Below are positions 1 to 12,400 of a stretch of 56,086 nucleotides of DNA, piece by piece (the first letter of the stretch is position 1; each line of letters starts with the position of its first letter). The notes below the pieces were generated by a model, which saw only the letters and a list, made by a program, of their open reading frames with translations, searched no databases and was not told the DNA's origin. The DNA comes from Bacteroidales bacterium. GTDB taxonomy: Bacteria > Bacteroidota > Bacteroidia > Bacteroidales > UBA932. Both the position numbers and the translations under genes were made by a program. The DNA lies in contig JABUTQ010000051.1 of NCBI GenBank assembly GCA_021443605.1, positions 1 through 56,086 on the forward strand. Direction: 5' to 3'.

Positions 1-190
1 ACGTGCGTGGTGACGCGGCGTAATGACGGTGTGGCAATTTCGTCATCCTGAGTGGCTTTGGCCCGAAGGATCGCCATGTGCGCGGGTAGATTCTTCGGCT
101 TCGCCTCAGAATGACGTGCGTGGTGACGCAGCGTAATGACGGCGTGGCAATTTCGTCATCCTGAGGGCTTTAGCCCGAAGGATCTCCTAT
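1..190. repeat. Cluster of short intergenic repeats (core CGTCATYCTGAG). Two ~72-nt direct copies (1-72, 114-185) and an inverted core at 105-116. Truncated by the window edge.
   Basis: Direct reading: 1-72 and 114-185 are near-identical. The core cgtcatcctgag occurs at 41-52 and 154-165, and its reverse complement ctcagaatgacg at 105-116. The reverse complement of 60-116 is near-identical to 2661-2717. Confidence 0.85.
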
Positions 191-191
191 T

Positions 192-2276
192 TTACTGCCC
201 TGCCGAAGGCTTCTTCGCCATCGGGAACTTGTAGTTGTTATCGATGATTGCCTGAGGCAGGAGATCACCATGAACCTGATAATAAGGAGCGGTTAAAGTT
301 CCGCTTCCACTTTGGCGTGTTCCGGCAAAGTCCATTACAACAATACCAACGGATCCTACAGGCTTTGTGTAAGAAGTGGTTCCTATCTTGGCAGTGCCTG
401 TCAGATAATCAAAGGCGAACTGATTGGAATCCTCAGCATTCTTACGATAGGCATTGGTTGTTGAAAGACCAAGGTTACTTCTATATCCGGAGCAGTGGTT
501 GATGACCCATTCATTGACCAGTGCAGGATTTGTATGGTGGGTTGCTGTCCTGTCCATCAACGCCTTAATCCTGTTCAGCTTTTCATTCTGGTCACTGAAA
601 GAATAGTAGTCATTTACCTCAAGCCTCGCAGTATTGTTGCCATTATATACAGAAGCAGGAGTACCGGTAGTCAAAGTGCTTTCATTACCCGGGAAGCTTG
701 AAATATATGCTCCCACTGGACCGTTAGTATATTGAGTTCTTGACATAACAATTATCTTCTTGCGACACTCCCCAACTGTCAGATCTGCCCTGAACGGAAT
801 GGTATAGCCAGAATATCCATCAAGGAATGATTTCATATTCGGAACAAATTTATCAGTATCCTTACCACTACTAGGCGTCTCATCTTCGTGACGCATAATA
901 ACGAGGGCAAATTCACCAGGATTTGCATTCAAATAAGCAACAATTTCATCGAATGCAGCTTTCAGAGAATACTCTGTAGAGGTAATACCATGATATATCC
1001 AGAATTCGTTATACAAATCAATCCCGAAGACTTCAACATGTCTCCAAGCCGGACGCAGGTCAAAAAACCTAATACCGATATTCAACTGATTCGTTAAGTC
1101 AAAGTCCTGTGTCTGACCGGCATTGAACAATGATGTTCCTTTACCGGTACCGGCATCGTGCGTGCCAGGGATAGAAAGCTGAGATACATAGATATCATCG
1201 TCAAGCGGAGTCATCCAGGCGTTTGCCGCTCCCTGAACAGGATTGATATTCGGCAGATTTATGGCACGCTTTGCGCTTGCAGCCACCACTATCTCACCCG
1301 CAGTCTTACCTATGGTCAAAGTTTTGTTGATGGCGCTTGTATTGTTCTTCGCCTGCGCGTGGATACGGATTTTAGCCGTCTTAGTGTCGCCAATGGCGTT
1401 TGGAGGGAGCATCACGGTAAGTTTCACGCTCTGCCCGGTTGTAAGGTCGATGAAACCGTGAGGATTGGCGCTGTCTCTGATGTCGTTGATACCAATGAAT
1501 ACCATAACTTCTTCCTTTGAGCCGGTATCCACCATCTGGCCATTCACAATGTCATATTTAAACTCGGTGTCTGAAACTTTGTTGGTCAGTTGGAAAGTCA
1601 AAGAGATACCTGTCAATGCCAAGACTGCGCCAGACTCGGTTGGCCCGTTGACAACGATGTCGAGGGTGGTCATGATGGGGCTGAACTGAAGCCCTACGCT
1701 CTCGGTATAGGCTGTAGTATTCTTTGCCACCATATAAGCATTCTGCTGCATATTTGGCTCTGCTGTGTACTGGTTGCTTGTAGCATCAGCCGTAATGTCG
1801 CAGGTCTGGTTGAAGTTGATTGGGAAGGTGGCTATGCCGTCTTCGTCAATCGAAACTCCGGTAGATGGATATGTGGCATAGAAGTCGATTAGCGCCGTAT
1901 CGTCTCCCTTCCAGATGATCGGTTCTTCAGGAGCGATAAGTTCAGCGGAAGTCCTGTAGTCATATCCTTCTGTCTCTGATGTGGTCGCAATAGTATAGAT
2001 GCCCGACTCGGCACCTTCGGTGCTCGCGTTGGGGCTGTAAATCAGCACGTCGTCACCGGCTGTCCAGTAAACAGGCCAACCATGGGTTTCGGTGTTTTGA
2101 GTGCCGTATTCAGTCTTTGTGGCCGGTGCGCCTGCGCCGAAATGTACTGCACGACCTTTAATTTCGGTGACGTTGCTGTTGTCGCTGTCATTGACGTTGG
2201 GTTCCTTTTGGCAGCTTGCAGATATGCCAACGCAGAGGACCATTGCCATAAATGCGTATATAAATCTTTTCATCAT
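192..2276 (-). CDS. Surface lipoprotein with a fimbrillin-like N-terminal region fused to a PI-PLC X-domain phosphodiesterase
   Basis: Lipoprotein signal peptide MMKRFIYAFMAMVLCVGISASC. The C-terminal ~330 aa align by eye with Bacillus cereus PI-PLC (WM.P...LSIPGTHDAGT, IRFFDLRP, WIYHG, NPGEFALVIM, RKKIIVMSR, VNDYY, VGIVVMDF), including both catalytic His contexts. The N-terminal half carries an Mfa/fimbrillin-like ATKTEYG...WTAGDDVLIYS pattern. Confidence 0.8.
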   Translation of the reverse strand: MMKRFIYAFMAMVLCVGISASCQKEPNVNDSDNSNVTEIKGRAVHFGAGAPATKTEYGTQNTETHGWPVYWTAGDDVLIYSPNASTEGAESGIYTIATTSETEGYDYRTSAELIAPEEPIIWKGDDTALIDFYATYPSTGVSIDEDGIATFPINFNQTCDITADATSNQYTAEPNMQQNAYMVAKNTTAYTESVGLQFSPIMTTLDIVVNGPTESGAVLALTGISLTFQLTNKVSDTEFKYDIVNGQMVDTGSKEEVMVFIGINDIRDSANPHGFIDLTTGQSVKLTVMLPPNAIGDTKTAKIRIHAQAKNNTSAINKTLTIGKTAGEIVVAASAKRAINLPNINPVQGAANAWMTPLDDDIYVSQLSIPGTHDAGTGKGTSLFNAGQTQDFDLTNQLNIGIRFFDLRPAWRHVEVFGIDLYNEFWIYHGITSTEYSLKAAFDEIVAYLNANPGEFALVIMRHEDETPSSGKDTDKFVPNMKSFLDGYSGYTIPFRADLTVGECRKKIIVMSRTQYTNGPVGAYISSFPGNESTLTTGTPASVYNGNNTARLEVNDYYSFSDQNEKLNRIKALMDRTATHHTNPALVNEWVINHCSGYRSNLGLSTTNAYRKNAEDSNQFAFDYLTGTAKIGTTSYTKPVGSVGIVVMDFAGTRQSGSGTLTAPYYQVHGDLLPQAIIDNNYKFPMAKKPSAGQ

Positions 2277-2316
2277 TGTTGCGTTTTTTTCAGTTTATAC
2301 TTTGTTCTGCTTGATG

Positions 2317-2490
2317 TTAATCCCAATCTGTTGGTGCAAATGGATTATCATAGCCCTCCTGTTCTGTGATGGTGGTGCCCCCTGTAACGTCAACTTCTCT
2401 ATCGGAAGCGGCCATCAGGGCCGACTCCACCACAATTTTAAACTCCTGTGTCACCGGAGTTTCATACTGACTGAATTTTGTTCTTTTCAT
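2317..2490 (-). CDS. Small acidic protein of 57 aa, below the 60-aa cutoff of the ORF track. Hypothetical.
   Basis: My own translation: ATG at 2488-2490, TAA at 2317-2319, MKRTKFSQYETPVTQEFKIVVESALMAASDREVDVTGGTTITEQEGYDNPFAPTDWD. A perfect -7 box lies 35 nt upstream. The ORF ends 40 nt before the lipoprotein start. No homolog recognised. Confidence 0.35.
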   Translation of the reverse strand: MKRTKFSQYETPVTQEFKIVVESALMAASDREVDVTGGTTITEQEGYDNPFAPTDWD

Positions 2491-2524
2491 CTATATATAT
2501 TCTATTGTTGGCGTAACAATTTTG

Positions 2525-2532
2525 CAAAGTTA
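2525..2532 (-). promoter_or_regulatory. Bacteroidetes -7 promoter box TAACTTTG
   Basis: Plus-strand caaagtta is TAACTTTG on the minus strand and matches the TAnnTTTG consensus. It is placed to drive the small ORF and the PI-PLC lipoprotein gene. Confidence 0.5.
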
Positions 2533-2619
2533 ATAATAATAATAATAGGTGCAAAAAAATTGCAGATTTTGAGATTTCTCTGTAAATTATGGAGTTCCCC
2601 GCTGGCATTCTAAGGCGCA

Positions 2620-2750
2620 AGCCTTCGTCAGAGGCGAATCATTCTGAGCCGAAGGCTATTCGTCATTCTGAGGCGAAGGCGAAGAATCTATCCACGCACA
2701 TGGAGATCCTTCGGGCTGAAGCCCTCAGGATGACGAATACCACGCCGCCA
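2620..2750. repeat. Second cluster of the CGTCATYCTGAG repeat family, inverted relative to cluster 1
   Basis: Core cgtcattctgag at 2661-2672 and inverted core ctcaggatgacg at 2724-2735. The segment 2661-2717 is about 90 percent identical by eye to the reverse complement of 60-116. Confidence 0.85.
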
Positions 2751-2817
2751 TTCATGAGTGAATATGGAAAGATAAACCGGCCCAACAGCGATGAGAGGTC
2801 GGAAGTTTTCGTGTACT

Positions 2818-2846
2818 AAAAAAGGCCCTCCATTTTGGATAGGCCT
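2818..2846 (-). terminator. Weak intrinsic terminator candidate after the three-gene operon
   Basis: On the minus strand a 5-bp stem (aggcc/ggcct) with a 14-nt loop is followed by TTTTTT, 27 nt downstream of the stop at 2873. The stem is short. Confidence 0.3.
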
Positions 2847-2872
2847 GCCGAATTTCATGTATTTTTGACCGC

Positions 2873-3304
2873 TTATTTGTTTACGGTTTTTGGTGTCACA
2901 ATCATGTCATTCTTAACGATCTCTGTCAGGTTCATAAGAGGAACTGTGTAGTTGTTGAGATTTGTGGCCTCGGTTTTGGCGAATTGTGCCCCCCTTGCCG
3001 CACCTAATGTAACGGTTGCCAAATGCTGAAGGAAACTATCAGGAATAACGATATTGCCGTTTTCCTGGGTCATTTCTTTCCAGCTTGCCGGTGCTACATC
3101 AAAATAGCACTCAATAACCATCACCATAACAGGCTCTTCTCCGTTGAGATAGGAAATCTTCAACGAGTTTCTGATTGATTGAATCTGATCATCTATTGAA
3201 AAGTTCACCTCATAATCAACGCGGAGAGGATTGGCAAAAGCCTCATCCTTTAATATCGCAAACTGAGGAATACTTATGCGATTTAATTTAAATTGTATAG
3301 CCAT
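2873..3304 (-). CDS. Hypothetical 143-aa protein, SecB-like chaperone candidate. Third gene of the toxin-antitoxin operon.
   Basis: ATG at 3302-3304, 3 nt after the antitoxin stop. By-eye resemblance to SecB: FKLNRISIPQFAIL against FQIQRIYTKDISFE, a central beta-rich segment, and C-terminal GAARGAQFAKTEATNLNNYTVPLMNLTEIV against [30 protein letters not shown]. Not computed. Confidence 0.45.
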   Translation of the reverse strand: MAIQFKLNRISIPQFAILKDEAFANPLRVDYEVNFSIDDQIQSIRNSLKISYLNGEEPVMVMVIECYFDVAPASWKEMTQENGNIVIPDSFLQHLATVTLGAARGAQFAKTEATNLNNYTVPLMNLTEIVKNDMIVTPKTVNK

Positions 3305-3307
3305 AAC

Positions 3308-3766
3308 TTAAGCGTATGAGTTTTCTGGATATTGTGCGAATAGTTGTGTGATGAAAGGGATGGCATTGTCTGATTGCTTTGAGAATGCCAATGTTGGAAA
3401 TGTCATCCATTTTCGATTGATGATTGATTCAGCGGAAGTTACGACAATAGAAGCAGAAACATCTGCCACTTCCATTAAGTTTACTCCTAAAGCCATTTCC
3501 AATTTGGAAATAGTTTCAAGAGTCAGATTTTCGGTCCCTTTTACAATTCTGCTTACGTACTGAGCCCTTACTCCCATTCGCTCTGCAAGTTCCTGTTTTG
3601 TCATTTTTTTCTTGCGGAGAAATGAAAGAACGGCAAAAGCGATCTTTGCAGATTTATCCAACCATGCTTCATTTTCCTCAAGTTCTTCAACTACCTTTAG
3701 CCAATCTACTGAGGAAGATGGTTGCGTGACGGCCTTAAAATATTCTTCGCTAGTCTGTGTGTTCAT
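3308..3766 (-). CDS. XRE-family helix-turn-helix protein, HigA-like antitoxin candidate with a ~55-aa C-terminal tail
   Basis: Clear HTH segment MTKQELAERMGVRAQYVSRIVKGTENLTLETISKLEMALGVNL. The start overlaps the upstream toxin-like gene by 17 nt. Confidence 0.8.
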   Translation of the reverse strand: MNTQTSEEYFKAVTQPSSSVDWLKVVEELEENEAWLDKSAKIAFAVLSFLRKKKMTKQELAERMGVRAQYVSRIVKGTENLTLETISKLEMALGVNLMEVADVSASIVVTSAESIINRKWMTFPTLAFSKQSDNAIPFITQLFAQYPENSYA

Positions 3767-4343
3767 TGGTTCTGTTGATTAAATCTTCTTTTGTATATAG
3801 TTTTTCTTTCTTTAGCCAGTCTTGCGCGCTCTCGATTAACCTCATCTCTTTATTGAGAGCAGTGTCTTTTTTGTTCCTAACCTTAACCTTTATGCCCCCA
3901 CCTGTAACTACATATCCGGGCAAATCACCTTTTGTTTTCGAATCAATTCTAATGCCGTATAATCGAAAGACAGAAGAAATGTCGGTCTCTGAATAACCGT
4001 ATAATTCTCGTCTATGTTCAGAGTCGGGATCGATAGGAACCCTATATAAACATTTGAACTTTTCTACGAGGTTTGGTGTTATCCCTTTTCGGCCATTTTT
4101 ATAATATGAGATAAAATCTGTCAAGAATCGTTTGGCTTCCTTGTGGGCCGATTCTTTTACTTCTTGAACAGTATGGCCTGCGTAATAGGGATTGTTCTTT
4201 ATATAATCGAAATTTTGCTCAAAAAATTCATCAATGAACTCTGGATCAAGCCATTTCCTCATCAGTTGTGAAAAACGATTGTCGTTTTCCCCTGTGAGTA
4301 TTATACTCCACACTTGATCCGGTAATACATTGGCTATATCCAT
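3750..4343 (-). CDS. RelE/ParE-superfamily (Gp49/HigB-like) toxin candidate with a ~95-aa N-terminal extension
   Basis: The C-terminal FRLYGIRIDSKTKGDLPGYVVTGGGIKVKVRNKKDTALNKEMRLIESAQDWL resembles the Gp49/killer-protein core (yRv.y...ivlLlcGGdKstQ.kDI..A). It sits first in the operon, directly upstream of the HTH gene. Confidence 0.5.
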   Translation of the reverse strand: MDIANVLPDQVWSIILTGENDNRFSQLMRKWLDPEFIDEFFEQNFDYIKNNPYYAGHTVQEVKESAHKEAKRFLTDFISYYKNGRKGITPNLVEKFKCLYRVPIDPDSEHRRELYGYSETDISSVFRLYGIRIDSKTKGDLPGYVVTGGGIKVKVRNKKDTALNKEMRLIESAQDWLKKEKLYTKEDLINRTNEHTD

Positions 4344-4344
4344 A

Positions 4345-4362
4345 CTAAACTTATAAGTTTAG
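4345..4362. promoter_or_regulatory. Perfect 18-bp palindrome CTAAACTTATAAGTTTAG, candidate operator
   Basis: ctaaactta/taagtttag is exactly self-complementary. It begins 2 nt upstream of the toxin ATG (4341-4343). Imperfect -7-like boxes lie at 4363-4370 (GACCTTTG) and 4391-4398 (TTTATTTG) on the minus strand. Confidence 0.5.
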
Positions 4363-4443
4363 CAAAGGTCTACTTTTTTATTGATATGTGCAAATAAATT
4401 TGGAGATTTGCCGAAACAGGATGACGGTCACCCCCCTCGCCGC

Positions 4444-5736
4444 TTAGTCTTTAAGACATGCCAGTGGGATAACCTTTACACCATCAGGACGAGTATATGC
4501 CATTTGCCCTCCGGTCAAGATGAGTAGTAAGTCAGGTTCTCGCAGAGGGACCTGTTGTTCATCCTTATTATGTTCCTCTATCAGTTGCTTGAGTTCCAAG
4601 AGATGTGCAGCACCATCGTTAATTTCTTGACTGCCTAGTTTGCATTCAATTAGCGCATATCGACCATCTGCAAGATGCAATACGAGGTCTGCTTCCAGTC
4701 CATATCTGTCATGATAATAGGATATGTGACTATCAAATTCGGTTGTATATGCCCGTAAATCTCTGATGCACATTTGTTCGAAAATAAAACCAAATGTCTT
4801 TAACTGTACTTCTAATGACTCGGCACTTTGACCTAACGCAGCAACAGCTATTGAAGGATCGGAGAAACAGCGTTTTGGTGTGCTGCGAATAGCAGTTTTG
4901 CTACGAATAGCCGGACACCACGCATCAATGTCTTGTATGACGAACAATTTTTCAAGGGCATTCACATAGTCATCAAAAGTATCCATGGATAGTGAGATAT
5001 CCCCAGATGCAGTTATGTCTGTCAGAATACTTATCTTTTTTGCCATTGTGCTGATATTCCTTGCATAGGACTTCAATATTTGTTTGGCAATCTTTGGATT
5101 TCTACGTCTCCCGTCAACTGCAGAGATATCATTGTTACAGATACTGTTAACATAGTCTTTTGCTATCATCATGCTTGCTTTTTCACTCATCTGAAGGGTA
5201 ACAGGCCATCCCCCTCGGCAAGCCACACGAATCAACTCCGGAATATCAAGTTTGCTTGTTGAGCCATCAATGTTGTAGGATTTATTGTCAAATAGTTCAC
5301 GGACTGAAACCATGCCCGACGACTCCTTTGACTCCCAAAGGCTCATAGGAAAGAACTTCATTCTGCTGATGCGACCTGTGCCTGTGTGTCCAATTTTTGA
5401 TTTGTCCACAGTGTTGCTACCTGTCAGCAAAAACTGTCCTGGGAGTCCGCCACTATCATCCACGGCCAACCTGACAGCATCCCAAATCTTTGGAGCATCT
5501 TGCCACTCGTCAATGAGACGTGGCTTCTCACCCTTTAATAGAAGAGATGGCATAGTTGCGGCTGTTTCAAGATATTCATCTTGTTTATCAGGATCTTGCA
5601 ACTTAATTACACTCTTGGCGTGCTGCATAGCCGTAGTAGTTTTTCCAGTCCATTTAGGCCCTTCTATCAGTATAGCACCGAATGCCTCGAGTCTATCTTG
5701 CAGCATCTGGTCTGCTATTCTTGGCAGGTATTCCAT
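4444..5736 (-). CDS. ATP-binding protein of the AAA_14 plus DUF4143 type
   Basis: Walker A EGPKWTGKTTTA. The 430-aa length and C-terminal pattern (RYGLEADLVL...YALIECKLG, a PD-(D/E)xK-like E-x-K) are typical of the COG1373 family that is abundant in Bacteroidales. Confidence 0.8.
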   Translation of the reverse strand: MEYLPRIADQMLQDRLEAFGAILIEGPKWTGKTTTAMQHAKSVIKLQDPDKQDEYLETAATMPSLLLKGEKPRLIDEWQDAPKIWDAVRLAVDDSGGLPGQFLLTGSNTVDKSKIGHTGTGRISRMKFFPMSLWESKESSGMVSVRELFDNKSYNIDGSTSKLDIPELIRVACRGGWPVTLQMSEKASMMIAKDYVNSICNNDISAVDGRRRNPKIAKQILKSYARNISTMAKKISILTDITASGDISLSMDTFDDYVNALEKLFVIQDIDAWCPAIRSKTAIRSTPKRCFSDPSIAVAALGQSAESLEVQLKTFGFIFEQMCIRDLRAYTTEFDSHISYYHDRYGLEADLVLHLADGRYALIECKLGSQEINDGAAHLLELKQLIEEHNKDEQQVPLREPDLLLILTGGQMAYTRPDGVKVIPLACLKD

Positions 5737-5758
5737 AGTTTCTAAATATTTACAAGTG

Positions 5759-5766
5759 CAAAGATA
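5759..5766 (-). promoter_or_regulatory. -7 promoter box TATCTTTG for the ATPase gene
   Basis: Plus-strand caaagata, 23 nt upstream of the ATG at 5736. Matches TAnnTTTG. Confidence 0.45.
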
Positions 5767-5789
5767 TGATTTTCAGTGGAATCGGGCAA

Positions 5790-5829
5790 TTTATTCGGTG
5801 TTTTTGAGATATTTTATTCGGTGTTTTTG
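5790..5829. repeat. Two perfect 17-nt direct repeats TTTATTCGGTGTTTTTG with a 23-nt period
   Basis: The copies at 5790-5806 and 5813-5829 are identical. They lie just upstream of the ATPase -7 box. Confidence 0.9.
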
Positions 5830-5871
5830 TGCCATATCATTTGATGTTCTTGTGGATACGAAACGGACTTT

Positions 5872-6056
5872 CTGCAAGCAGTACAAAGATTCTTCGCTGA
5901 CGCTCAGAATGACGTGCTGCTGTCGCTCAGAATGACAAGTCGCTGCCGCTCAGAATGACGTGCTGCTCGGGGAATTCTTCGCTGTCGCTCAGAATGACGT
6001 GCTGCTCGGGGAGATTCTTCGCTGACGCTCAGAATGACGTGCCGCTGACGCTCAGA
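5872..6056. repeat. Third cluster of the same repeat family. Six same-orientation cores CTCAGAATGAC.
   Basis: Cores start at 5892, 5915, 5938, 5977, 6017 and 6040, with spacings of 23, 23, 39, 40 and 23 nt. They are embedded in repeated gattcttcgctgacgctcagaatgacgtgctgctcgggg units. Confidence 0.9.
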
Positions 6057-6145
6057 ATGACACGCCGGAATGGAGGCAGAGCCCCCTAAATAAAAAGAGA
6101 GAGCCAAGACGGCCCTCTCCTTTCAATATTCAGATTAACAAGAAT

Positions 6146-8017
6146 TTACTCTTGAGTTGAATCCCACCATACGGGGATTGACCAAACTGCAAGGTCGCTG
6201 TTCCAGCACTTCTTGCCGCTTGAAGCATTGACAGCATCCATATTTGCACCGGGAACCTTTGCACCGATTGCGTGGAGCTGTGTAGAGTTGTAGTTAAGCT
6301 CGTGTGAGCACTGCTGCCAGCGGCGAGGCTGTGTTCCGAGAGGAACGGCCTGCTGAGCGGCTACAGACTGATAGTACTGTGCGGGAACTCCGAATCCGAA
6401 GAAAATCTCGGGATTATAGTCGTAGCGGCGTGCATCGTTGTAGAGCTCAACTGAGAAATGCATAGCCAAACGCTTCTGAGTCATAATCTTACCAAGTGAG
6501 AGATTTGCTGCTGTACCGATACCCTTGCTGAGGAAGTTGGTCATTTCAGCATCTGTCATAGGAACGAATGACGGGCAGTCGAGCAAACCGGCATCTTCCT
6601 TGACCCACTGGTTGAGCTTGATGTTCATCTCTTCCATAGATGCCTTGATACCTGCCTTGTAGGCATCAAATGCACCATTCTGATCACCCTTCTTGAAGAG
6701 GACCTCAGCCTTGATGAAGCAAGCCTCTGAGTATGTTCCAAGGTATGTGGGAGATGAAACGCGGCTGTAGAATGAGCCTGATTCTTTTGATGCATCTGTT
6801 CCGTTTCTTCTGTAGAGAAGGTCCTGATTTGCAGCATAACCCTTTGAAGAGCTTGTGCACTCTACGTAAACGGTGTCACCGAGACGATCGGGGTTGCTTG
6901 AATCAATCCACCAATGTTTAGTGGCATTGAAGTTGGCACGAAGCGGACCACCATTGAGGTTGGGAGCTTCATCAGAAACCATATCGATGCCGAGAGATCT
7001 TCTCCAGTCGCCTTTCCATTTAATCTCTGCGGGTGAATCAGCAGACTTGCCTGACATTGCCCAAGGGATGATGCGGTCTGCGCGAGGGTCTTCAACACCA
7101 TTGCCTGCGAAGTTTGTAAGGTTGTCATACAACATCTTGGTAACCATATAACCACCGTTCATACCGCAGACTGAATAGAGAGGTGAGTAGTCAACAGGCT
7201 CGTCCCAACCAAGAACGTCGTGAGTTGTGCTGTTGTCGTCTGTATGATAGATGACGGCATTGTCGTTGATGCTTGTCTGAGCTGCTGCAAGAGCATCAAG
7301 GATGGCCTGTGCATCATATTTGCCATCTTTGTAGCTGCCTGCCTGCTTCTTGTTGAGTTTGTTGATCCAGCGGGCTTTGAGCAAGTTGCCGAACTTAACC
7401 CATTTGTTGACGTCTCCACCCATCCAGTAATCTCCGAGAGCGAGGGCGGGGAGTGAGGCGTCCTGTCCCTTCGCGAGGGCTTCAAGACCTTCCTCAAGGA
7501 ATTTCATACATCCGAGCCAGATTTCCTTACCTGTGTTGTAAGGAGGAGTAGCGGACTCTGCGCAAGCCTCGTCGAAAGGCATTTCACCGTAAAGGTCTGT
7601 CATCAACATATTTCCATAGGCCCAGATAATCTTGCCGACACCCACATAGTGGTATGCGCCAGCATCTTCGGCCTTCTTAATCATATATGAGATGTTGTTT
7701 GCAGCACCCACGAACCACCACTGGTAAGGAGTGGTCACAGCACCTGACTGAGGGAGCCAAATAGATGCATTGAAGTATGTACCACCACCTGAATAACGGG
7801 TCCAGTCTCCAATCAGGAAGTTTGTACGCCAGTTGGCGAACTGCATAGCGCTGTTGGTATAGAACTCGATATGTGCAAGACGGTTTTGGTATGCAGCACT
7901 CTCTGACGAAGGATTCTCGGGGTCTGTATTGACATCCAGCCAACCTTTGCATGAGCTCATCGAAAGCACGCTGAGCGCGCAAACGATACCTAAAAATATA
8001 TTCTTTATATTTTTCAT
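6146..8017 (-). CDS. susD: SusD/RagB-family nutrient-binding outer-membrane lipoprotein
   Basis: Lipoprotein signal LSVLSMSSCKGWLDVNTDPENPS. 623 aa, immediately downstream of a SusC gene. Confidence 0.9.
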   Translation of the reverse strand: MKNIKNIFLGIVCALSVLSMSSCKGWLDVNTDPENPSSESAAYQNRLAHIEFYTNSAMQFANWRTNFLIGDWTRYSGGGTYFNASIWLPQSGAVTTPYQWWFVGAANNISYMIKKAEDAGAYHYVGVGKIIWAYGNMLMTDLYGEMPFDEACAESATPPYNTGKEIWLGCMKFLEEGLEALAKGQDASLPALALGDYWMGGDVNKWVKFGNLLKARWINKLNKKQAGSYKDGKYDAQAILDALAAAQTSINDNAVIYHTDDNSTTHDVLGWDEPVDYSPLYSVCGMNGGYMVTKMLYDNLTNFAGNGVEDPRADRIIPWAMSGKSADSPAEIKWKGDWRRSLGIDMVSDEAPNLNGGPLRANFNATKHWWIDSSNPDRLGDTVYVECTSSSKGYAANQDLLYRRNGTDASKESGSFYSRVSSPTYLGTYSEACFIKAEVLFKKGDQNGAFDAYKAGIKASMEEMNIKLNQWVKEDAGLLDCPSFVPMTDAEMTNFLSKGIGTAANLSLGKIMTQKRLAMHFSVELYNDARRYDYNPEIFFGFGVPAQYYQSVAAQQAVPLGTQPRRWQQCSHELNYNSTQLHAIGAKVPGANMDAVNASSGKKCWNSDLAVWSIPVWWDSTQE

Positions 8018-8036
8018 CTTGATTTCGTATTAAAAA

Positions 8037-11000
8037 TTAGAATGTCAAATTAAGACCGAAAGTCATACCGGCTGTAGCGGGAACACCGCAGTAGTCGAAA
8101 CCAACTGAAGATGAACCACCTACACCTGCACCAGCTGCTGCAACCTCAGGATCACCGTCGTAGTTGGTGAAGAGGAGGATGTTGTTTGCAGTTGCAGATA
8201 CAGTCACTCTCTTGATGAAACCTGTGGCATCCATCCACTTCTTGGGGAGAGAATAGCTCAAACCGAGTGAACGGAGACGGAAGAGGTTGACCTTTGTAAT
8301 ATAGTTTGCAGAATTGGTAGGATAATATGAAGTGTAGTAACTCTTGATGATGTTGTAACCACTTACAAGCTTGCCATTGAATTCATATTCCTGGTCTGCA
8401 TTCCAAGTATGTGTCATAGCCTCGTAAACAGGAATTTCCTTGGTCTTGTCGCCATCCTGAACTGTCTGTGTGCCAGTCTTGTAAAGACCTGACACCGTGA
8501 GAGGTTCATTACGCCATTTTGCAGAATTGGCACTTGTACCAGCCTGGTCCATGGTGTATCTTGTACCGTTCACAACGTCCCCACCGAATGAGAACTCCCA
8601 CAACATATTGAGGGAGAGACCCTTCCAAGTGAAAGTATTGTTGAAACCACCTGTAAGGACAGCTTCACGGTTACCAACCTCTGAAAGGTCAGTTGTATAG
8701 GTAGGCATTCCGTTCTTGTCGAGAACTACCTGGTTTGTAGTTTGATAGAGAACTTTACCGCTCTCGCCTACGATGGTGTTGTCTTTATTCCACGCTGTAC
8801 CTGCAATACCCATGAAGTAACCACCATTGTAAGAAGCAGCCTTCATTCCGGCATACTGAACGTCTGTAACGTACATTACGTCGGTACCATCCGGCAGACC
8901 GTCGAGCTTACCGCGGTTGCCTGCGAGGTTGAGGGTTGACTCCCATACGAAATCTCTTGTCTCAACTGGTGTACCGCTGATAGAGAGCTCCATACCTTTG
9001 TTATATACGTTCGCTGCATTGATTGAGCAGAAGATATAACCTGTTGACTGAGGTCCGCGAGGTGAAAGAATCTGGTTGTAAGAGTCGTTTGTGTAGTATG
9101 CGTAGTCGATATGGAGACGTCCGTTGAAGAAGCCGAGTTCGATACCGATTTCAGTAGATTTTGTCATTTCAGGCTTGAGGTACGGGTTACCACGGGTCCA
9201 GCTGTTACCAACACCAGTGATGCCACCGAGATAAGTACCTACAGGCCAGAGAGCTGTATTAGTCTCATAAACGCCTGTGTCCTTACCTACCTTTGCCCAA
9301 GAAGCGCGGATTTTACCGAAAGTGAACACGTCATTCTTAGGGATGAGTTCGCTAAACACGAACGATCCGCTCACTGACGGATAGAAGTATGAACGGTTTG
9401 CAACAGGGAGTGTTGAAGTCCAGTCGTTACGACCTGTTACTGTCAAATAGAGCATATTTCTCCAAGATGCGCGGAACTCACCGAACACACCTGCGAGTCT
9501 CTTGAGGGATGAGCCGTGTGAGAACTGCTTGTAGTCTGCTGAAGCATTTGCATAAGAGAAGAAATCGGGAACGGAGAAGTTCCAGGCCATCATATATTCT
9601 GTCTCACCGCTGGTCTGGTCAATCTGGCCACCGAGGAGGAGTCCGAGTTCGAACTCACCGAACTTCTTGTTCATATTAGAAGTCACGTTGTGTGAGAGAT
9701 ACTGATACTGACGGGTATTGTCACTCATCATACCTTTCTGCCATGCTTGCTTGATAACTGAACCTGCAGCGATTCTGTTGCGGTTTGTCTGAGTGTAAGT
9801 ATCGATACCGAGACGATAGTTGAGTGTCCACCAATCAAATATCTTGGCATTTACGAACAAGCTACCTGTGAAACGGTTGGTCTGGTCTGTGAGTTTATCC
9901 TTGTTGATAATCCAATAAGGGTTTTCACGCTCGTCCCAAGGGTCGAGACGGTCGCCGAAAAGACGATAGCGTGTTCCGTCTTCGTTGAGATAATGTTTCA
10001 TATCATCAAACGGAGACCATACGTATGCTGAATAGAGGGCACCGTTACCGCTTGAGTTGTAAAGACCGCCTGAAGTGAGGGTCTTGTCTGTCTCTGCCTG
10101 TGAATAAGCTGCGTTTGCACCAACTGTGAAGATATTGCCAATCTTCTGTTCGCCGTTGAAACGGAAAGTGTATTTGGTATATCCTGTTCCGGGAACAACA
10201 CCGCCCTGATCGTAGAAAGATCCTGAGAGGAAGAAGTTGTTGGTCTTTGTACCGCCGGCTACGCTGAGGCTTTCGTCAACGATAAGGCCGCCCTTGAAGA
10301 ACTGACCGAGGTTGTCGTAAGTCTTTGCAGAGCTCTTTGTACCCCAAGAGTTGTATGAAAAGTCGTTGAATGCAGTTTCGTGCTTTCCGCCGGGGTAGAG
10401 GTCCTCGATGTATCCGCGAGCATACTCATTCTGGAATTTGGGGAGATTTGTAACCCAAGAGGTAGAGATCTTTGAGTTGAAGTTGACCTCAACCCTGCCT
10501 TCCTTACCTTTCTTGGTGGTGATGATAATCACACCGTTTGCAGCGCGTGAACCATAAAGAGCTGAAGCGGCAGGACCTTTGAGGACAGACATTGACTCGA
10601 TATCCTCGGGGTTGATATCCATAAGACGATTTGAAGTGGTCATTGTACCACGGATTGTACCGTCGAATGCAGAGTTACCAACGAGTGAAGATGAGTTGTC
10701 ATAAATCACACCGTCAACTACGAAGAGAGGCTGGCTATCCTTTGTTTCGGAACCTGAAGTGGCACCACGAAGGATAATCTGTGCGCCTGAACCGGCAGCA
10801 CCACTTGATTGAGTGATGTTTACACCGGCAACCTTACCTGAAAGAGAAGAGATAGGGTTTGCAGTCTTGTTTCTCATCAACTCGGTAGAGCTAACTTCTT
10901 CCATTGCGTAACCGAGAGATTTTTTCTCTTTCTTGATACCCATCGCAGTAACTACTGCGTCTTCGAGCATGAGGGCATCGTCTTCAAGAATCATGTCAAT

Positions 11001-11285
11001 TTTCTGACGGCCATTGACGGCAACTTCAACGGTCTTGTAACCCATTGAAGAAAATTCCAATGTTCCGCGTGAGGGAGCTGTCAGTGAATACACTCCGTTG
11101 ACATCTGTCGCAGCACCGTTGGAAGTTCCCTTCACAACAACGTATGCTCCAACGACCGGCTCGCCTCTCTGATCTGTCACCTTACCGGTAACGTTCAGAT
11201 TCTGAGCCATCACTGTTCCCAAACCGAGAACAAGTGCGCACATCACCGCAAAAAAGCGGCTCAATTTGTTAGACAAAATGAACAT
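8037..11285 (-). CDS. susC: SusC/RagA-family TonB-dependent outer-membrane transporter
   Basis: Signal peptide, carboxypeptidase-regulatory-like domain (NVTGKVTDQRGEPVVGAYVVVKGTSNGAATDVNGVYSL), plug and barrel. The C-terminal F and the 1082-aa length fit the family. Confidence 0.95.
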   Translation of the reverse strand: MFILSNKLSRFFAVMCALVLGLGTVMAQNLNVTGKVTDQRGEPVVGAYVVVKGTSNGAATDVNGVYSLTAPSRGTLEFSSMGYKTVEVAVNGRQKIDMILEDDALMLEDAVVTAMGIKKEKKSLGYAMEEVSSTELMRNKTANPISSLSGKVAGVNITQSSGAAGSGAQIILRGATSGSETKDSQPLFVVDGVIYDNSSSLVGNSAFDGTIRGTMTTSNRLMDINPEDIESMSVLKGPAASALYGSRAANGVIIITTKKGKEGRVEVNFNSKISTSWVTNLPKFQNEYARGYIEDLYPGGKHETAFNDFSYNSWGTKSSAKTYDNLGQFFKGGLIVDESLSVAGGTKTNNFFLSGSFYDQGGVVPGTGYTKYTFRFNGEQKIGNIFTVGANAAYSQAETDKTLTSGGLYNSSGNGALYSAYVWSPFDDMKHYLNEDGTRYRLFGDRLDPWDERENPYWIINKDKLTDQTNRFTGSLFVNAKIFDWWTLNYRLGIDTYTQTNRNRIAAGSVIKQAWQKGMMSDNTRQYQYLSHNVTSNMNKKFGEFELGLLLGGQIDQTSGETEYMMAWNFSVPDFFSYANASADYKQFSHGSSLKRLAGVFGEFRASWRNMLYLTVTGRNDWTSTLPVANRSYFYPSVSGSFVFSELIPKNDVFTFGKIRASWAKVGKDTGVYETNTALWPVGTYLGGITGVGNSWTRGNPYLKPEMTKSTEIGIELGFFNGRLHIDYAYYTNDSYNQILSPRGPQSTGYIFCSINAANVYNKGMELSISGTPVETRDFVWESTLNLAGNRGKLDGLPDGTDVMYVTDVQYAGMKAASYNGGYFMGIAGTAWNKDNTIVGESGKVLYQTTNQVVLDKNGMPTYTTDLSEVGNREAVLTGGFNNTFTWKGLSLNMLWEFSFGGDVVNGTRYTMDQAGTSANSAKWRNEPLTVSGLYKTGTQTVQDGDKTKEIPVYEAMTHTWNADQEYEFNGKLVSGYNIIKSYYTSYYPTNSANYITKVNLFRLRSLGLSYSLPKKWMDATGFIKRVTVSATANNILLFTNYDGDPEVAAAGAGVGGSSSVGFDYCGVPATAGMTFGLNLTF

Positions 11286-11338
11286 AAGTGAAATTTTAGG
11301 TTAATATTATGTGTTAATCTTATGTGCATAAAATTTTT

Positions 11339-11346
11339 CAAAGTTA
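11339..11346 (-). promoter_or_regulatory. -7 promoter box TAACTTTG for susC/susD pair 1
   Basis: Plus-strand caaagtta, 54 nt upstream of the ATG at 11285. Confidence 0.5.
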
Positions 11347-11383
11347 TAAAAAAAACCACAATCTCAAAGGAATTGGCACTATA

Positions 11384-12400
11384 TCAGAATATATCTTCAT
11401 TTACCCCCTCAAGAAATGCCGTTTCGATGGGGATATAGAAGAGGCGTTCACGGATAACTTTGGGGATGGTGGTTTCGAAAACGAAGCGCTGGGCATCCTT
11501 TTCGGTGGTCAAGAGCACCGCACGGGGATGGGCTTCGGCCAAGGATACAATCTGCCGCACGTCCGACTTCGTGAATTTGTGATGGTCGGGATAGCTCAGA
11601 AAATGGGCTTCGCGATAGATCGAGAGCACGTGCATCTTAATCTGGGTATTGTCTGCGATGCCGGTTATGAGAATCGCCTCCTGAGAGTAAATGAACCTGT
11701 TGTTTCCAAAATCGGAGAAGACCGGCAACGGCTGGCAGTATTCTATCGTGGTGAAGGAGGTCTTGTGGTGGCGCCCCACCCTGTTTGCTTCAATTATTTT
11801 CTCTCTGTCCCATTCGTTCAGATATGATGGACATTTTGTAAATATCACTGTATCAGCTCGTTTTATCTGAGAAGGAATATCCCTCAACCTGCCGAACGGG
11901 AGGAGAAAATCTTTGAATACCGGCCTGTTGTATGGTATCAGGAGCACAGATTTGGAAGGTTTCAGTTTCCTGTACTGGAATCCGTCATCCAAGATTATGA
12001 CATCCGGGCGCTTCTCTTGAGGGAGTTCCATCATTTTCTTGACGGCGGCGCAGCGATTTTTGCTTACGATAACCGTTGCTTGTGGGAACTTGCGTTTGAT
12101 TTGGAGCGGCTCGTCTCCGACAGTTGAAGCTTTGTCATATTCATCTACTATTTTGAGTCCCCGCCCCTTGCGCCCGTAGCCGAGAGAGATTACACCCACT
12201 TTGCCCTTTTTGAGATATTCTTTTACAAACATCTCTGTATGAGGCGTTTTACCGGTACCACCAACGGTGATATTCCCTATTGAAATGATTGGAATATCGA
12301 ATGAAGATGAATGGAGAATCCCTTTGTCGAACCACCTGTTACGAATGGCAAGCACCAAATAATATGGGAACAGAAGTATCTTGTTTACGAAGGCGTACAT
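11384..12400 (-). CDS. lpxK: Tetraacyldisaccharide 4'-kinase
   Basis: P-loop GNITVGGTGKTPHTE. I re-anchored the start to the ATG at 12398-12400 (MYAFVNK), 1 nt after the dusB stop. The longer track ORF overlaps dusB. Confidence 0.9.
   Translation of the reverse strand: MYAFVNKILLFPYYLVLAIRNRWFDKGILHSSSFDIPIISIGNITVGGTGKTPHTEMFVKEYLKKGKVGVISLGYGRKGRGLKIVDEYDKASTVGDEPLQIKRKFPQATVIVSKNRCAAVKKMMELPQEKRPDVIILDDGFQYRKLKPSKSVLLIPYNRPVFKDFLLPFGRLRDIPSQIKRADTVIFTKCPSYLNEWDREKIIEANRVGRHHKTSFTTIEYCQPLPVFSDFGNNRFIYSQEAILITGIADNTQIKMHVLSIYREAHFLSYPDHHKFTKSDVRQIVSLAEAHPRAVLLTTEKDAQRFVFETTIPKVIRERLFYIPIETAFLEGVNEDIF

What the first reader, a model, noticed from the sequence alone, without database searches (positions are those of the whole stretch)
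2873..4343. Candidate tripartite toxin-antitoxin-chaperone (TAC-like) operon: extended RelE/Gp49-like toxin, XRE antitoxin with a long tail, SecB-like third gene
Three minus-strand genes are packed tightly, with a 17-nt overlap and then a 3-nt gap.

- **Gene 1 (197 aa).** Its C-terminus (FRLYGIRI...YVVTGGGIKV...NKEMRLIESA) reads like the RelE/ParE Gp49/HigB core. About 95 extra residues precede it.
- **Gene 2 (152 aa).** This is an unambiguous XRE HTH protein. It carries a ~55-aa tail beyond the DNA-binding domain.
- **Gene 3 (143 aa).** No obvious family. By eye it tracks SecB at the N-terminal strand (FKLNRISIPQFAIL against FQIQRIYTKDISFE) and at the C-terminal helix region.

Gene order and antitoxin size mirror Mycobacterium tuberculosis HigB1-HigA1-Rv1957. 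In that system a SecB-like chaperone rescues an antitoxin through a C-terminal chaperone-addiction tail. Such a module with an N-terminally extended toxin in a gut Bacteroidales would be uncharacterised.

The block looks AT-richer than its neighbours and is flanked by repeat clusters. The family assignments for genes 1 and 3 are my own pattern recognition, not computed.
Basis: partly seen in the sequence, partly recalled or inferred. Interest (0 to 1): 0.75.

Follow-up and report, generated by a model that had tools for sequence, protein, structure and literature searches.

The report
Chaperone-dependent toxin-antitoxin-like operon in Bacteroidota
These three tightly packed genes look like a toxin–antitoxin module whose antitoxin depends on its own SecB-shaped chaperone. 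The putative toxin is a protein family of unknown fold, and the module is widespread in Bacteroidota and listed only as an untested phage-defence candidate.

Summary
Three minus-strand ORFs of 197, 152 and 143 aa lie at 2873-4343, with a 17-nt overlap and a 3-nt gap.

**Gene 3.** It has no sequence match to SecB. Its AlphaFold model is very confident (pLDDT 96). The 11 best PDB matches are all SecB-fold proteins, including E. coli SecB (TM 0.55-0.58) and the M. tuberculosis TAC chaperone Rv1957.

**Gene 2.** It is an XRE helix-turn-helix protein with a 52-aa aromatic-rich tail that ends in Ala.

**Gene 1.** It is not detectably RelE/Gp49. Pfam, PDB profile, Foldseek (PDB and viral) and hhalign against a genuine Gp49 alignment were all negative. 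Its whole length is the family norm, so it is not an "extended" toxin.

**Comparative evidence.**
- The trio is conserved in about 95 of 111 Bacteroidota loci.
- Gene 1 homologs also occur in two-gene modules with tail-less HTH partners.
- A gene 3 homolog is present only when the HTH carries a tail of at least 37 aa (19 of 19 against 0 of 48; p = 4e-11).
- A palindrome, AACYTNNARGTT, sits just upstream of the gene 1 start codon family-wide.

The families correspond to PADLOC's untested candidate PDC-M64.

**Verdict.** This is a TAC-like system with a new toxin family and a highly divergent SecB-like chaperone. It is a new variant of a known kind.

The parts
3750..4343 (-). Gene 1. A 197-aa putative toxin or effector of an uncharacterised Bacteroidota family (PADLOC PDC-M64A/B-type). 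Conserved core R127, Y129, G148, G149, I151, K152.
   Evidence: ORF. The family has more than 110 members, all 'hypothetical protein' with no Pfam domain. 105 of 111 members hit PADLOC PDC-M64B and 70 hit PDC-M64A. AF2 pLDDT 86.1, pTM 0.84. No structural or sequence match to RelE/Gp49 or to anything else.
3308..3766 (-). Gene 2. A 152-aa XRE-type HTH protein, the putative antitoxin and autorepressor.
   Evidence: Pfam HTH_3, residues 51-98, E = 2e-12. Sub-threshold NCBIfam HigA, E = 6.8e-7. PADLOC PDC-M64B/C HTH models at 1e-13. 105 of 107 ORFs immediately upstream of gene 3 homologs are its homologs.
3311..3466 (-). C-terminal tail of gene 2 (residues 101-152), a candidate chaperone-addiction (ChAD-like) region. 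It has seven aromatic residues (W120, F123, F128, F138, F143, Y146, Y151) and ends ...SYA.
   Evidence: Read from the sequence. Tails of 37-74 aa occur in all 19 gene 1-anchored loci that carry a gene 3 homolog, and in none of the 48 tail-less ones. Tails are enriched in Tyr and Phe, and 59 of 104 end in Ala.
2873..3304 (-). Gene 3. A 143-aa divergent SecB-fold protein, the putative dedicated chaperone (PADLOC PDC-M64C).
   Evidence: 672 representative clusters in the exhaustive HMMER search. AF2 pLDDT 96.4, pTM 0.88. Foldseek top 11 PDB hits are all SecB-like fold: 2o2a, 1qyn, 2hng, 5mtw, 1fx3. 139 of 139 members hit PDC-M64C, and up to ten hits (six to one model, four to the other; members may overlap) fall on the two models of PD-T4-9_C, which is CmdC. 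A natural HTH-gene 3 fusion exists, P0145.
4345..4362 (.). Perfect 18-bp palindrome CTAAACTTATAAGTTTAG, 2 nt upstream of the gene 1 ATG. Candidate operator for the gene 2 HTH dimer.
   Evidence: 9+9 nt, 100% complementary, unique in the window. It is conserved in contigs whose gene 1 is only 38-40% identical. Its core AACYTNNARGTT is found near the start of 65 of 86 gene 1 homologs, against a background of 0.007 per region.
4363..4394 (-). Promoter-like region: TTTG (4391-4394), 20 nt, GACCTTTG (4363-4370).
   Evidence: Invariant blocks in the alignment of upstream regions. The resemblance to the Bacteroides -33 TTTG / -7 TAnnTTTG promoter is from my own knowledge and was not tested here.
2818..2846 (-). 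Terminator-like hairpin followed by a U-run, 27 nt downstream of the gene 3 stop codon.
   Evidence: RNA fold: hairpin AGGCCUAUCCAAAAUGGAGGGCCU followed by UUUUU. The 61-nt segment has dG -14.7 kcal/mol and z = -1.8, which is modest support.

Best explanation
This is a three-gene toxin-antitoxin-chaperone (TAC)-like operon of a Bacteroidota-wide lineage. It corresponds to the three-gene form of PADLOC's untested candidate PDC-M64.

**Proposed mechanism.**
- Gene 1 encodes the growth-inhibiting effector. It belongs to a new family of unknown fold.
- Gene 2 encodes an XRE-HTH antitoxin. It neutralises gene 1 and represses the operon by binding, as a dimer, the palindrome that overlaps the promoter and start region.
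- The 52-aa aromatic-rich C-terminal tail of gene 2 makes the protein unstable or aggregation-prone.
- Gene 3, a divergent SecB-fold chaperone, holds that tail. The antitoxin therefore works only while the chaperone is free.
- If the chaperone is titrated away, for example by a phage protein as shown for E. coli HigBAC, or if the module is lost, the antitoxin fails and gene 1 is released.

**What is shown here.** The gene structure, the SecB-like fold, the HTH domain, conservation of the trio, tail-chaperone co-variation, and the conserved palindrome.

**What is inferred.** Toxicity of gene 1, neutralisation by gene 2, tail-chaperone binding, operator binding, and a role in defence.
For: 1. 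**Architecture.** The three co-oriented genes are tightly coupled. There is a promoter-like region with a palindrome upstream and a terminator-like hairpin downstream.
2. **Gene 3 fold.** The model has pLDDT 96.4. The best PDB matches are exclusively SecB-fold proteins, including the TAC chaperone Rv1957 bound to its ChAD peptide (5mtw). TM to E. coli SecB is 0.55-0.58. Up to ten hits (six plus four, to the two models; members may overlap) among 139 family members fall on the PADLOC models of CmdC, the SecB-like chaperone of CmdTAC (PMC9519451).
3. **Conservation.** Of 111 gene 3-anchored genome loci, 105 have a gene 2 homolog directly upstream, and 95 of 98 second-upstream ORFs are gene 1 homologs.
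4. **Natural experiment.** Gene 1-anchored metagenomic loci show two-gene modules (gene 1 plus tail-less HTH, 48 loci, none with gene 3) and three-gene modules (19 loci, all with HTH tails of 37-74 aa). Fisher p = 3.9e-11. A two-gene example sits on a conjugative Bacteroides faecis plasmid next to a zeta toxin gene.
5. **Tails resemble ChADs.** They are variable in sequence and rich in Tyr and Phe, with a median of 5 aromatics. 59 of 104 end in Ala, mostly AA or VA, like the ClpXP degrons of Mtb HigA1 and CmdA (10.1101/2024.02.24.581848).
6. **Fusion protein.** P0145 joins the HTH, an aromatic linker and a gene 3-type domain.
7. **Decay pattern.** Seven loci keep gene 2 and gene 3 with a truncated gene 1. 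This matches the toxin-less 'AC' systems described for TACs (PMC3581621).
8. **Operator.** The AACYTNNARGTT palindrome lies at a fixed position before the ATG in 65 of 86 loci.
9. **Defence context.** PDC-M64 was found by others embedded in BREX, DISARM and type I RM loci (10.1101/2024.01.29.577857, supplementary file 8). In this window the neighbour is PDC-S01.
Against: - No experiment shows that gene 1 is toxic, and its fold and activity are unknown.
- Gene 3 has no detectable sequence relationship to SecB. Foldseek E-values are modest (3.5e-4 to 1.2e-2), and TM to the TAC chaperone 5mtw is only 0.40.
- No complex prediction of tail with gene 3 could be run.
- Ten loci have HTH tails of 27-59 aa without a gene 3 homolog, so a tail does not always imply a chaperone.
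- Tail-less HTH partners also often end in Ala or Val, so the C-terminal Ala is not specific to the three-gene form.
- The co-variation is counted over loci, not over independent evolutionary events.
Confidence: 0.62

Rival explanations
1. Gene 1 is a very remote RelE/ParE (BECR-fold, Gp49/HigB-like) mRNA endonuclease. The module would then be a HigBA-SecB TAC with a strongly elaborated toxin.
For: - The order of secondary-structure elements is compatible with an elaborated RelE-type layout: N-terminal strands, helices, a four-strand meander at 96-151, then C-terminal helices.
- The conserved polar residues K113, R127, Y129 and K152 lie on these strands. This is reminiscent of RelE-type active sites (my inference).
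- In two loci the same slot holds 117-130-aa proteins, one with a sub-threshold full-length Gp49 hit (E = 0.012). These align to the 'LRxYAI...VITGG' hairpin of gene 1 at 95% hhalign probability, but over only about 25 columns.
- The gene order, toxin first and XRE-HTH second, is HigBA-like.
Against: - No RelE, ParE, HigB, Gp49, YoeB or similar Pfam hit at E of 0.1 or better in 94 family members or in gene 1 itself.
- Nothing was found in PDB sequences with the family profile.
- No RelE-fold protein appears in the top 50 Foldseek hits in PDB or BFVD for a model with pTM 0.84.
- hhalign of a genuine nine-member Gp49 alignment against the family gives probability 0.6-1.0%.
Confidence: 0.2
2. The module is not a toxin-antitoxin system. 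It would be a small regulatory or accessory cassette. Gene 2 would be an ordinary transcription factor, gene 1 a non-toxic partner such as a sensor or anti-repressor, and gene 3 a SecB-fold protein with another role.
For: - Toxicity is untested.
- Gene 1 has no similarity to any known toxin.
- XRE-HTH proteins are ubiquitous regulators.
- The strongly conserved palindrome shows only that regulation is conserved.
Against: - The gene sizes, tight coupling, HTH-second order and patchy distribution are typical of type II TA and TAC modules. So is the presence on a conjugative plasmid beside a zeta toxin gene.
- The modules are embedded in BREX, DISARM and RM loci.
- Toxin-slot swapping occurs, and truncated gene 1 copies occur with intact partners.
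- The strict tail-chaperone co-variation is hard to explain without a tail-chaperone dependency.
Confidence: 0.13
3. Gene 1 is a GNAT-like acetyltransferase toxin (of the TacT, AtaT or KacT type) paired with an unusual HTH antitoxin.
For: The weak top Foldseek hits in both libraries are GNAT acetyltransferases. GNATs also run strand, two helices, three strands, helix.
Against: - TM-scores are only 0.15-0.26, rmsd is 9-13 A, probability is 0.51 or less, and E is 0.02 or worse.
- No GNAT Pfam hit exists in 94 members.
- No Q/RxxGxG/A acetyl-CoA motif is evident in the consensus (my reading).
Confidence: 0.04

Closest known systems
Mycobacterium tuberculosis TAC (HigB1-HigA1-Rv1957 SecB-TA) and E. 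coli HigBAC
   Same: - The gene order is toxin, XRE-HTH antitoxin, chaperone.
- The antitoxin size is similar and it has a disordered aromatic C-terminal extension that often ends in an aliphatic-Ala terminus.
- The third protein has the SecB fold; 5mtw is among the top Foldseek hits.
- Two-gene relatives lack both the tail and the chaperone. This parallels the experimentally shown modularity of ChAD and SecB (PMC5105189).
   Different: - The toxin is not a detectable Gp49/HigB/RelE protein.
- The chaperone is not recognised by Pfam SecB (PF02556) or by sequence profiles. Its TM to 5mtw is only 0.40.
- The lineage is Bacteroidota-wide, a phylum not mentioned in the main text of the TAC survey read (PMC3581621).
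- No experimental data exist.
CmdTAC (PD-T4-9) of E. coli
   Same: It is a three-gene defence TAC with a non-RelE toxin. A few gene 3 family members give weak hits to the PADLOC CmdC (PD-T4-9_C) models.
   Different: - CmdT is an mRNA ADP-ribosyltransferase, and gene 1 shows no ART similarity.
- CmdA is not an XRE-HTH protein of this type.
- The similarity of gene 3 to CmdC is marginal (E about 1e-3).
PADLOC phage defence candidate PDC-M64 (Payne et al. 2024, guilt-by-embedding)
   Same: - All 139 gene 3 relatives hit PDC-M64C, and 105 of 111 gene 1 relatives hit PDC-M64B.
- Gene 2 hits the PDC-M64 HTH models.
- PDC-M64 was defined from a two-gene and a three-gene cassette sharing the first family. 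This matches the two forms found here.
   Different: - PDC-M64 is only a catalogue entry. It is untested, and no fold, TAC or SecB interpretation appears in the paper or its held supplements.
- The window's proteins match the models only moderately: gene 1 E = 0.009, gene 3 E = 4e-7.
Canonical export chaperone SecB (E. coli 1qyn, H. influenzae 1fx3)
   Same: The fold matches: four long antiparallel strands followed by a long helix. TM is 0.49-0.58 over about 145 columns.
   Different: - Sequence identity is 10-12% with no profile-level similarity.
- Gene 3 is operon-linked to an HTH protein rather than solitary.
- SecA-binding features were not examined.

Membership tests
TAC (toxin-antitoxin-chaperone) systems | Three co-transcribed genes in the order toxin, antitoxin, chaperone. 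| tested here: met
   17-nt overlap and 3-nt gap. The same order recurs in about 95 of 111 homologous loci.
TAC (toxin-antitoxin-chaperone) systems | The third gene encodes a SecB-like chaperone (SecB fold). | tested here: met
   AF2 pLDDT 96.4. The Foldseek top 11 PDB hits are all SecB-like fold. TM is 0.55-0.58 to 1qyn, and 5mtw is included. Chaperone activity itself was not tested.
TAC (toxin-antitoxin-chaperone) systems | The antitoxin carries a C-terminal extension (ChAD) that is absent from chaperone-less relatives. | tested here: met
   The tail is at least 37 aa in 19 of 19 loci with gene 3, and gene 3 is absent from all 48 loci with tail-less HTHs, p = 3.9e-11. The tails are aromatic-rich.
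TAC (toxin-antitoxin-chaperone) systems | The chaperone binds the ChAD and is required for the antitoxin to neutralise the toxin. | not testable with these tools
   This needs co-expression assays, binding assays or a multimer prediction. The structure-prediction quota allowed monomers only.
TAC (toxin-antitoxin-chaperone) systems | The first gene product is toxic. | not testable with these tools
   Only indirect evidence exists: its position, truncated copies with intact partners, and slot swapping.
RelE/ParE superfamily (Gp49/HigB, BECR fold), for gene 1 | Sequence match to a RelE-superfamily model (PF05973, PF05015, PF05016, PF06296 and others). | tested here: not met
   No such hit for gene 1 or for any of 94 family members at E of 0.1 or better. 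hhalign against a nine-sequence Gp49 alignment gives probability of 1% or less.
RelE/ParE superfamily (Gp49/HigB, BECR fold), for gene 1 | RelE-like three-dimensional fold. | tested here: not met
   For a model with pLDDT 86 and pTM 0.84, no RelE, ParE or HigB structure appears among the top 50 Foldseek hits in PDB or BFVD. A very remote relationship cannot be excluded by Foldseek alone.
SecB family (Pfam PF02556), for gene 3 | Match to the SecB sequence model. | tested here: not met
   0 of 139 members hit PF02556 at E of 1 or better. The family profile against PDB sequences finds nothing. hhalign against E. coli SecB gives 0.5%. The fold-level match is positive.
XRE/Cro-C1 HTH (PF01381), for gene 2 | HTH_3 domain above the gathering score. 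| tested here: met
   47.4 bits against a cut-off of 23, E = 2e-12.
PADLOC PDC-M64 | Adjacent genes matching the PDC-M64 A/B/C models. | tested here: met
   Gene 2 at 1e-13, gene 3 at 4.3e-7, and gene 1 weakly at 0.009. At family level, 105 of 111 and 139 of 139 members match.
GNAT acetyltransferase toxins, for gene 1 | GNAT fold or sequence model. | tested here: not met
   Only noise-level Foldseek hits, TM 0.26 or less. No GNAT Pfam hits.

The most novel reading that the evidence does not exclude
Gene 1 founds a new toxin or effector fold with a biochemical activity not yet seen in TA or defence systems. The divergent SecB-like protein would be both the antitoxin's chaperone and the phage sensor of a Bacteroidota-wide abortive-infection system. 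Natural two-gene and three-gene versions would show chaperone addiction being gained or lost in evolution.
Probability: 0.3. Interest if true: 0.78.

Novelty: new variant of a known kind. Interest (0 to 1): 0.6.

Why it matters
TAC systems have so far been studied in Actinobacteria and Proteobacteria, with HigB, MqsR, HicA or CmdT toxins. If this reading is right, a whole phylum that includes dominant gut and environmental bacteria carries its own TAC lineage. Sequence searches for SecB cannot see it.

The lineage has a toxin family of unknown fold and activity. It also comes with a ready-made natural experiment: two-gene modules with tail-less antitoxins set against three-gene modules with tailed antitoxins plus chaperone. 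That comparison can test how chaperone addiction evolves.

The reading also gives a concrete, testable mechanism to a PADLOC "phage defence candidate" (PDC-M64) that currently has none. It identifies a family-wide operator motif as well.

Tried and rejected
- **Alignment-based locus searches.** The search for related loci with alignments A1, A2 and A4 failed because no stretch was conserved enough. I replaced them with degenerate-motif DNA scans.
- **Close relatives in reference genomes.** The search for relatives of gene 3 in GTDB representatives found none.
- **RelE/Gp49 for gene 1.** Rejected as unsupported after Pfam, NCBIfam, PHROG, PDB-profile, Foldseek (two libraries) and hhalign tests. 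The one positive is a 25-column hhalign match to two short toxins that replace gene 1 in L044 and L113. It is too short to carry the claim.
- **GNAT for gene 1.** Rejected (TM 0.26 or less).
- **The neighbouring DUF4143 ATPase (PDC-S01) as a fourth component.** Rejected because it is not conserved beside the trio.
- **Generic palindrome enrichment upstream of gene 1 homologs.** Not significant. Only the specific AACYTNNARGTT motif is enriched.
- **tblastn of the short L113 toxin against plasmids.** No hit.
- **Rfam and tRNA scans of 1-12000.** Nothing found.
- **Viral contigs.** The family is rare there, so a phage origin is not indicated.
Full report
**Observation.** The ORF listing shows three minus-strand ORFs exactly as described:
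- gene 1 at 3750-4343, 197 aa
- gene 2 at 3308-3766, 152 aa
- gene 3 at 2873-3304, 143 aa

Genes 1 and 2 overlap by 17 nt, and genes 2 and 3 are separated by 3 nt. The block is AT-richer than its surroundings, with GC 0.37-0.44 against 0.46-0.51. It lies between inverted clusters of GTCATTCTGAGCG-type repeats at 2626-2739 and 5887-6067. These repeats also enclose an upstream 430-aa AAA_14/DUF4143 ATPase at 4444-5736. That ATPase is PADLOC candidate PDC-S01 (E = 2.4e-58).

**Gene 2.** Pfam HTH_3 matches residues 51-98 (E = 2e-12), and there is a sub-threshold HigA-antitoxin hit in NCBIfam. Residues 101-152 follow the DNA-binding domain. This tail contains seven aromatic residues (W120, F123, F128, F138, F143, Y146, Y151) and ends in ...SYA.

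**Gene 3.** No Pfam, NCBIfam or PHROG family matches it. The word-indexed search found only six close relatives. The exhaustive HMMER search found 672 representative clusters, nearly all of 135-155 aa.

At the sequence level there is no link to SecB:
- The family profile finds nothing in PDB sequences at E of 10 or better.
- None of 139 members hits Pfam SecB.
- hhalign against E. coli SecB gives 0.5% probability.

At the fold level the answer is different:
- With the 139-sequence alignment, AlphaFold2 gives pLDDT 96.4 and pTM 0.88. The model has four long antiparallel strands followed by a long helix.
- The 11 best Foldseek matches in PDB are all SecB-fold proteins. They are 2o2a and 2hng (SP1558-like), E. 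coli SecB 1qyn (TM 0.55/0.58, probability 1.00), H. influenzae SecB 1fx3, and M. tuberculosis Rv1957 bound to its ChAD peptide, 5mtw.
- Only after these do partial hot-dog-fold hits appear (E above 0.07).

In addition, up to ten hits (six to one model, four to the other; members may overlap) among the 139 family members fall weakly on the two PADLOC models of PD-T4-9_C. That protein is CmdC, the SecB-like chaperone of CmdTAC (PMC9519451).

**Gene 1.** No library recognises it. I collected relatives from the neighbourhoods of gene 3 homologs and by a profile search. That search returned 120 proteins; those that carry a source name are all called "hypothetical protein". No RelE-type or other toxin Pfam domain is recorded for any of them; the one protein with Pfam hits is a probable gene-call fusion. 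The following tests were then run:
- The AlphaFold2 model is good (pLDDT 86.1, pTM 0.84). It runs from an N-terminal beta-hairpin through four helices and a four-strand meander (96-151) to two C-terminal helices.
- Foldseek finds no credible match in PDB or in the viral BFVD library. The best hits have E of 0.02 or worse and TM of 0.26 or less. They are weak GNAT-like noise, and no RelE, ParE or HigB structure is in either top 50.
- None of 94 members hits any RelE-superfamily Pfam model at E of 0.1 or better.
- The family profile finds nothing relevant in PDB sequences.
- For a fair profile-profile test I built a nine-member alignment of genuine Gp49 toxins. It was seeded from phage N15 gp49 and diverse phage homologs. 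hhalign against the gene 1 family gives 0.6-1.0% probability.

The only positive hint comes from two loci, L044 and L113. There the gene 1 slot holds unrelated-looking 117-130-aa proteins. One has a sub-threshold Gp49 hit (E = 0.012). These align to the "LRxYAI...VITGG" hairpin of gene 1 at 95% probability, but over only about 25 columns.

I conclude that the RelE/Gp49 assignment is not supported, although a very remote relationship is not excluded. The "about 95 extra N-terminal residues" idea is also not supported. A length of 170-200 aa is the family norm, and the protein models as one unit.

**Conservation of the trio.** A degenerate-motif scan of one genome per species returned 120 loci. 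Almost all are Bacteroidota, with a few Ignavibacteria or Chlorobiota.
- 111 loci have a full-length gene 3 homolog.
- 107 of these have a same-strand ORF directly upstream, and 105 of those ORFs are gene 2 homologs.
- 95 of 98 second-upstream ORFs are gene 1 homologs.
- The trio is also intact around relatives only 47% identical to gene 3, and on a Persicobacter megaplasmid.

**Tail-chaperone co-variation.** A conjugative Bacteroides faecis plasmid carries a typical gene 1 homolog followed by a 101-aa HTH. That HTH ends right after the DNA-binding domain. No gene 3 homolog follows, and a zeta toxin gene lies nearby.

I therefore sampled metagenomic loci anchored on a gene 1 motif. Among 77 loci with an HTH partner and at least 480 nt of downstream sequence:

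| HTH tail | Gene 3 homolog present | Gene 3 homolog absent |
|---|---|---|
| 25 aa or more | 19 (tails 37-74 aa) | 10 (tails 27-59 aa, hydrophilic) |
| under 25 aa | 0 | 48 |

Fisher's exact test gives p = 3.9e-11. This is what chaperone addiction predicts, and it mirrors the experimentally shown modularity of ChAD and SecB pairs (PMC5105189). The caveat is that loci are not independent evolutionary events.

**Nature of the tails.** Next to gene 3 homologs (n = 104) the tails have these properties:
- The median length is 51 aa and the sequences are variable.
- Tyr is 6.1% against 1.8% in the HTH part, and Phe is 3.9% against 2.1%. The median is five aromatic residues per tail.
- 59 of 104 end in Ala (AA 21, VA 17), against a 5.9% background Ala frequency.

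Aromatic short motifs and an aliphatic-Ala C-terminus are the features reported for the ChADs of E. coli HigA, Mtb HigA1 and CmdA (10.1101/2024.02.24.581848). Tail-less partners also often end in Ala or Val, so that terminus is not specific to the three-gene form.

**Further support.**
- One representative protein, P0145, fuses the HTH, an aromatic linker and a gene 3-type domain.
- Seven loci keep intact gene 2 and gene 3 behind a truncated gene 1. These resemble the toxin-less "AC" systems described for TACs (PMC3581621).
- Gene 1 homologs without an HTH partner are rare. There is one IS insertion and one alternative partner.

**Regulation.**
- A perfect 18-bp palindrome, CTAAACTTATAAGTTTAG, lies at 4345-4362, 2 nt before the gene 1 ATG. 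It is unique in the window.
- It is conserved in contigs whose gene 1 is only 38-40% identical. Conserved TTTG and GACCTTTG blocks lie 20 nt apart upstream of it. These resemble the Bacteroides -33/-7 promoter (my own knowledge, not tested here).
- Across the family, the core AACYTNNARGTT occurs near the gene 1 start in 65 of 86 genome loci. It usually begins exactly 18 nt before the ATG, against a background of 0.007 per region.
- It occurs in both two-gene (32 of 49) and three-gene (14 of 17) modules.
- The simplest reading is an operator for the HTH dimer, giving autorepression as in type II TA operons. Binding is inferred, not shown.
- A terminator-like hairpin with a U-run follows gene 3.

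**Relation to what is known.** All three families map onto PADLOC's PDC-M64 models. PDC systems are 145 untested candidates found by "guilt-by-embedding" inside BREX, DISARM and type I RM loci (10.1101/2024.01.29.577857). PDC-M64 was defined from a two-gene and a three-gene cassette that share the first family (supplementary file 8). These match the two forms found here. Neither that paper nor its held supplements mention SecB or a TAC reading, and no paper in the library contains "PDC-M64". The main text of the TAC survey I read does not mention Bacteroidetes; it used PSI-BLAST with the Mtb chaperone, and its Pfam PF02556 criterion for solitary SecB does not recognise this family.

**Verdict.** The module is best explained as a TAC-like system with three components: a toxin or effector of a new, unclassified family, an XRE-HTH antitoxin and autorepressor with a ChAD-like tail, and a highly divergent SecB-fold chaperone. 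The probable role is phage defence or stabilisation of mobile elements. Membership of the TAC class is met for architecture, chaperone fold and tail-chaperone linkage. It is untestable here for toxicity and chaperone dependence. Membership of RelE/Gp49 for gene 1 was tested and not met. I rate this a new variant of a known kind, with interest 0.6.

Noticed in passing
window 4444-5736 (-): A 430-aa AAA_14 + DUF4143 ATPase matches PADLOC single-gene candidate PDC-S01 (E = 2.4e-58). It lies directly upstream of the trio on the same strand and inside the same repeat-bounded, AT-rich block. It is not conserved beside the trio elsewhere, so this looks like a small defence island rather than a four-gene system.
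   Followed up: partly
window 5790-5835: Two tandem 23-nt repeats, TTTATTCGGTGTTTTTG(A/T)G..., lie just upstream of the ATPase gene. They may be a regulatory site.
   Followed up: no
window 42-167, 2626-2739, 5887-6067: There are clusters of GTCATTCTGAGCG-type repeats, 15 matches against 1.8 expected. The two clusters that flank the four-gene block are in inverted orientation. No Rfam family matches them.
   Followed up: partly
P0145 (291 aa, metagenomic representative): This is a natural fusion of an XRE-HTH domain, an aromatic-rich linker and a gene 3-family (SecB-fold) domain in one polypeptide. It could be a true fusion or a gene-call artefact.
   Followed up: partly
L044 and L113 (genome loci): The gene 1 slot in front of the same HTH plus SecB-like pair holds unrelated 117-130-aa proteins. 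One has a sub-threshold Gp49 hit (E = 0.012). This suggests toxin swapping on a constant antitoxin-chaperone chassis.
   Followed up: partly
L135, L142, L153, L177, L201, L204, L209, L213, L217, L230: Ten gene 1-anchored modules have HTH partners with hydrophilic tails of 27-59 aa that do not end in Ala. They have no gene 3 homolog. This is a different, unexplained kind of tail.
   Followed up: no
L131 (Bacteroides faecis plasmid CP103229.1, 24661-25522): A two-gene version (183-aa gene 1 homolog plus 101-aa tail-less HTH) sits on a conjugative plasmid. It lies about 1 kb from a zeta toxin family gene. The same CTAAACTTATAAGTTTA palindrome is about 60 nt upstream of its start.
   Followed up: partly
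upstream of gene 1 homologs in L010-L129: The palindrome AACYTNNARGTT is almost always followed by GATTTWATG, only 6 nt from the start codon. This implies a very short or absent 5' leader. Why the spacing is so fixed is unexplained.
   Followed up: partly
L008 1425-1586; also L029, L087, L107: Short remnants of the C-terminal core of gene 1 (45-56 aa) persist in front of intact HTH and SecB-like genes. These are apparently decayed toxins.
   Followed up: partly
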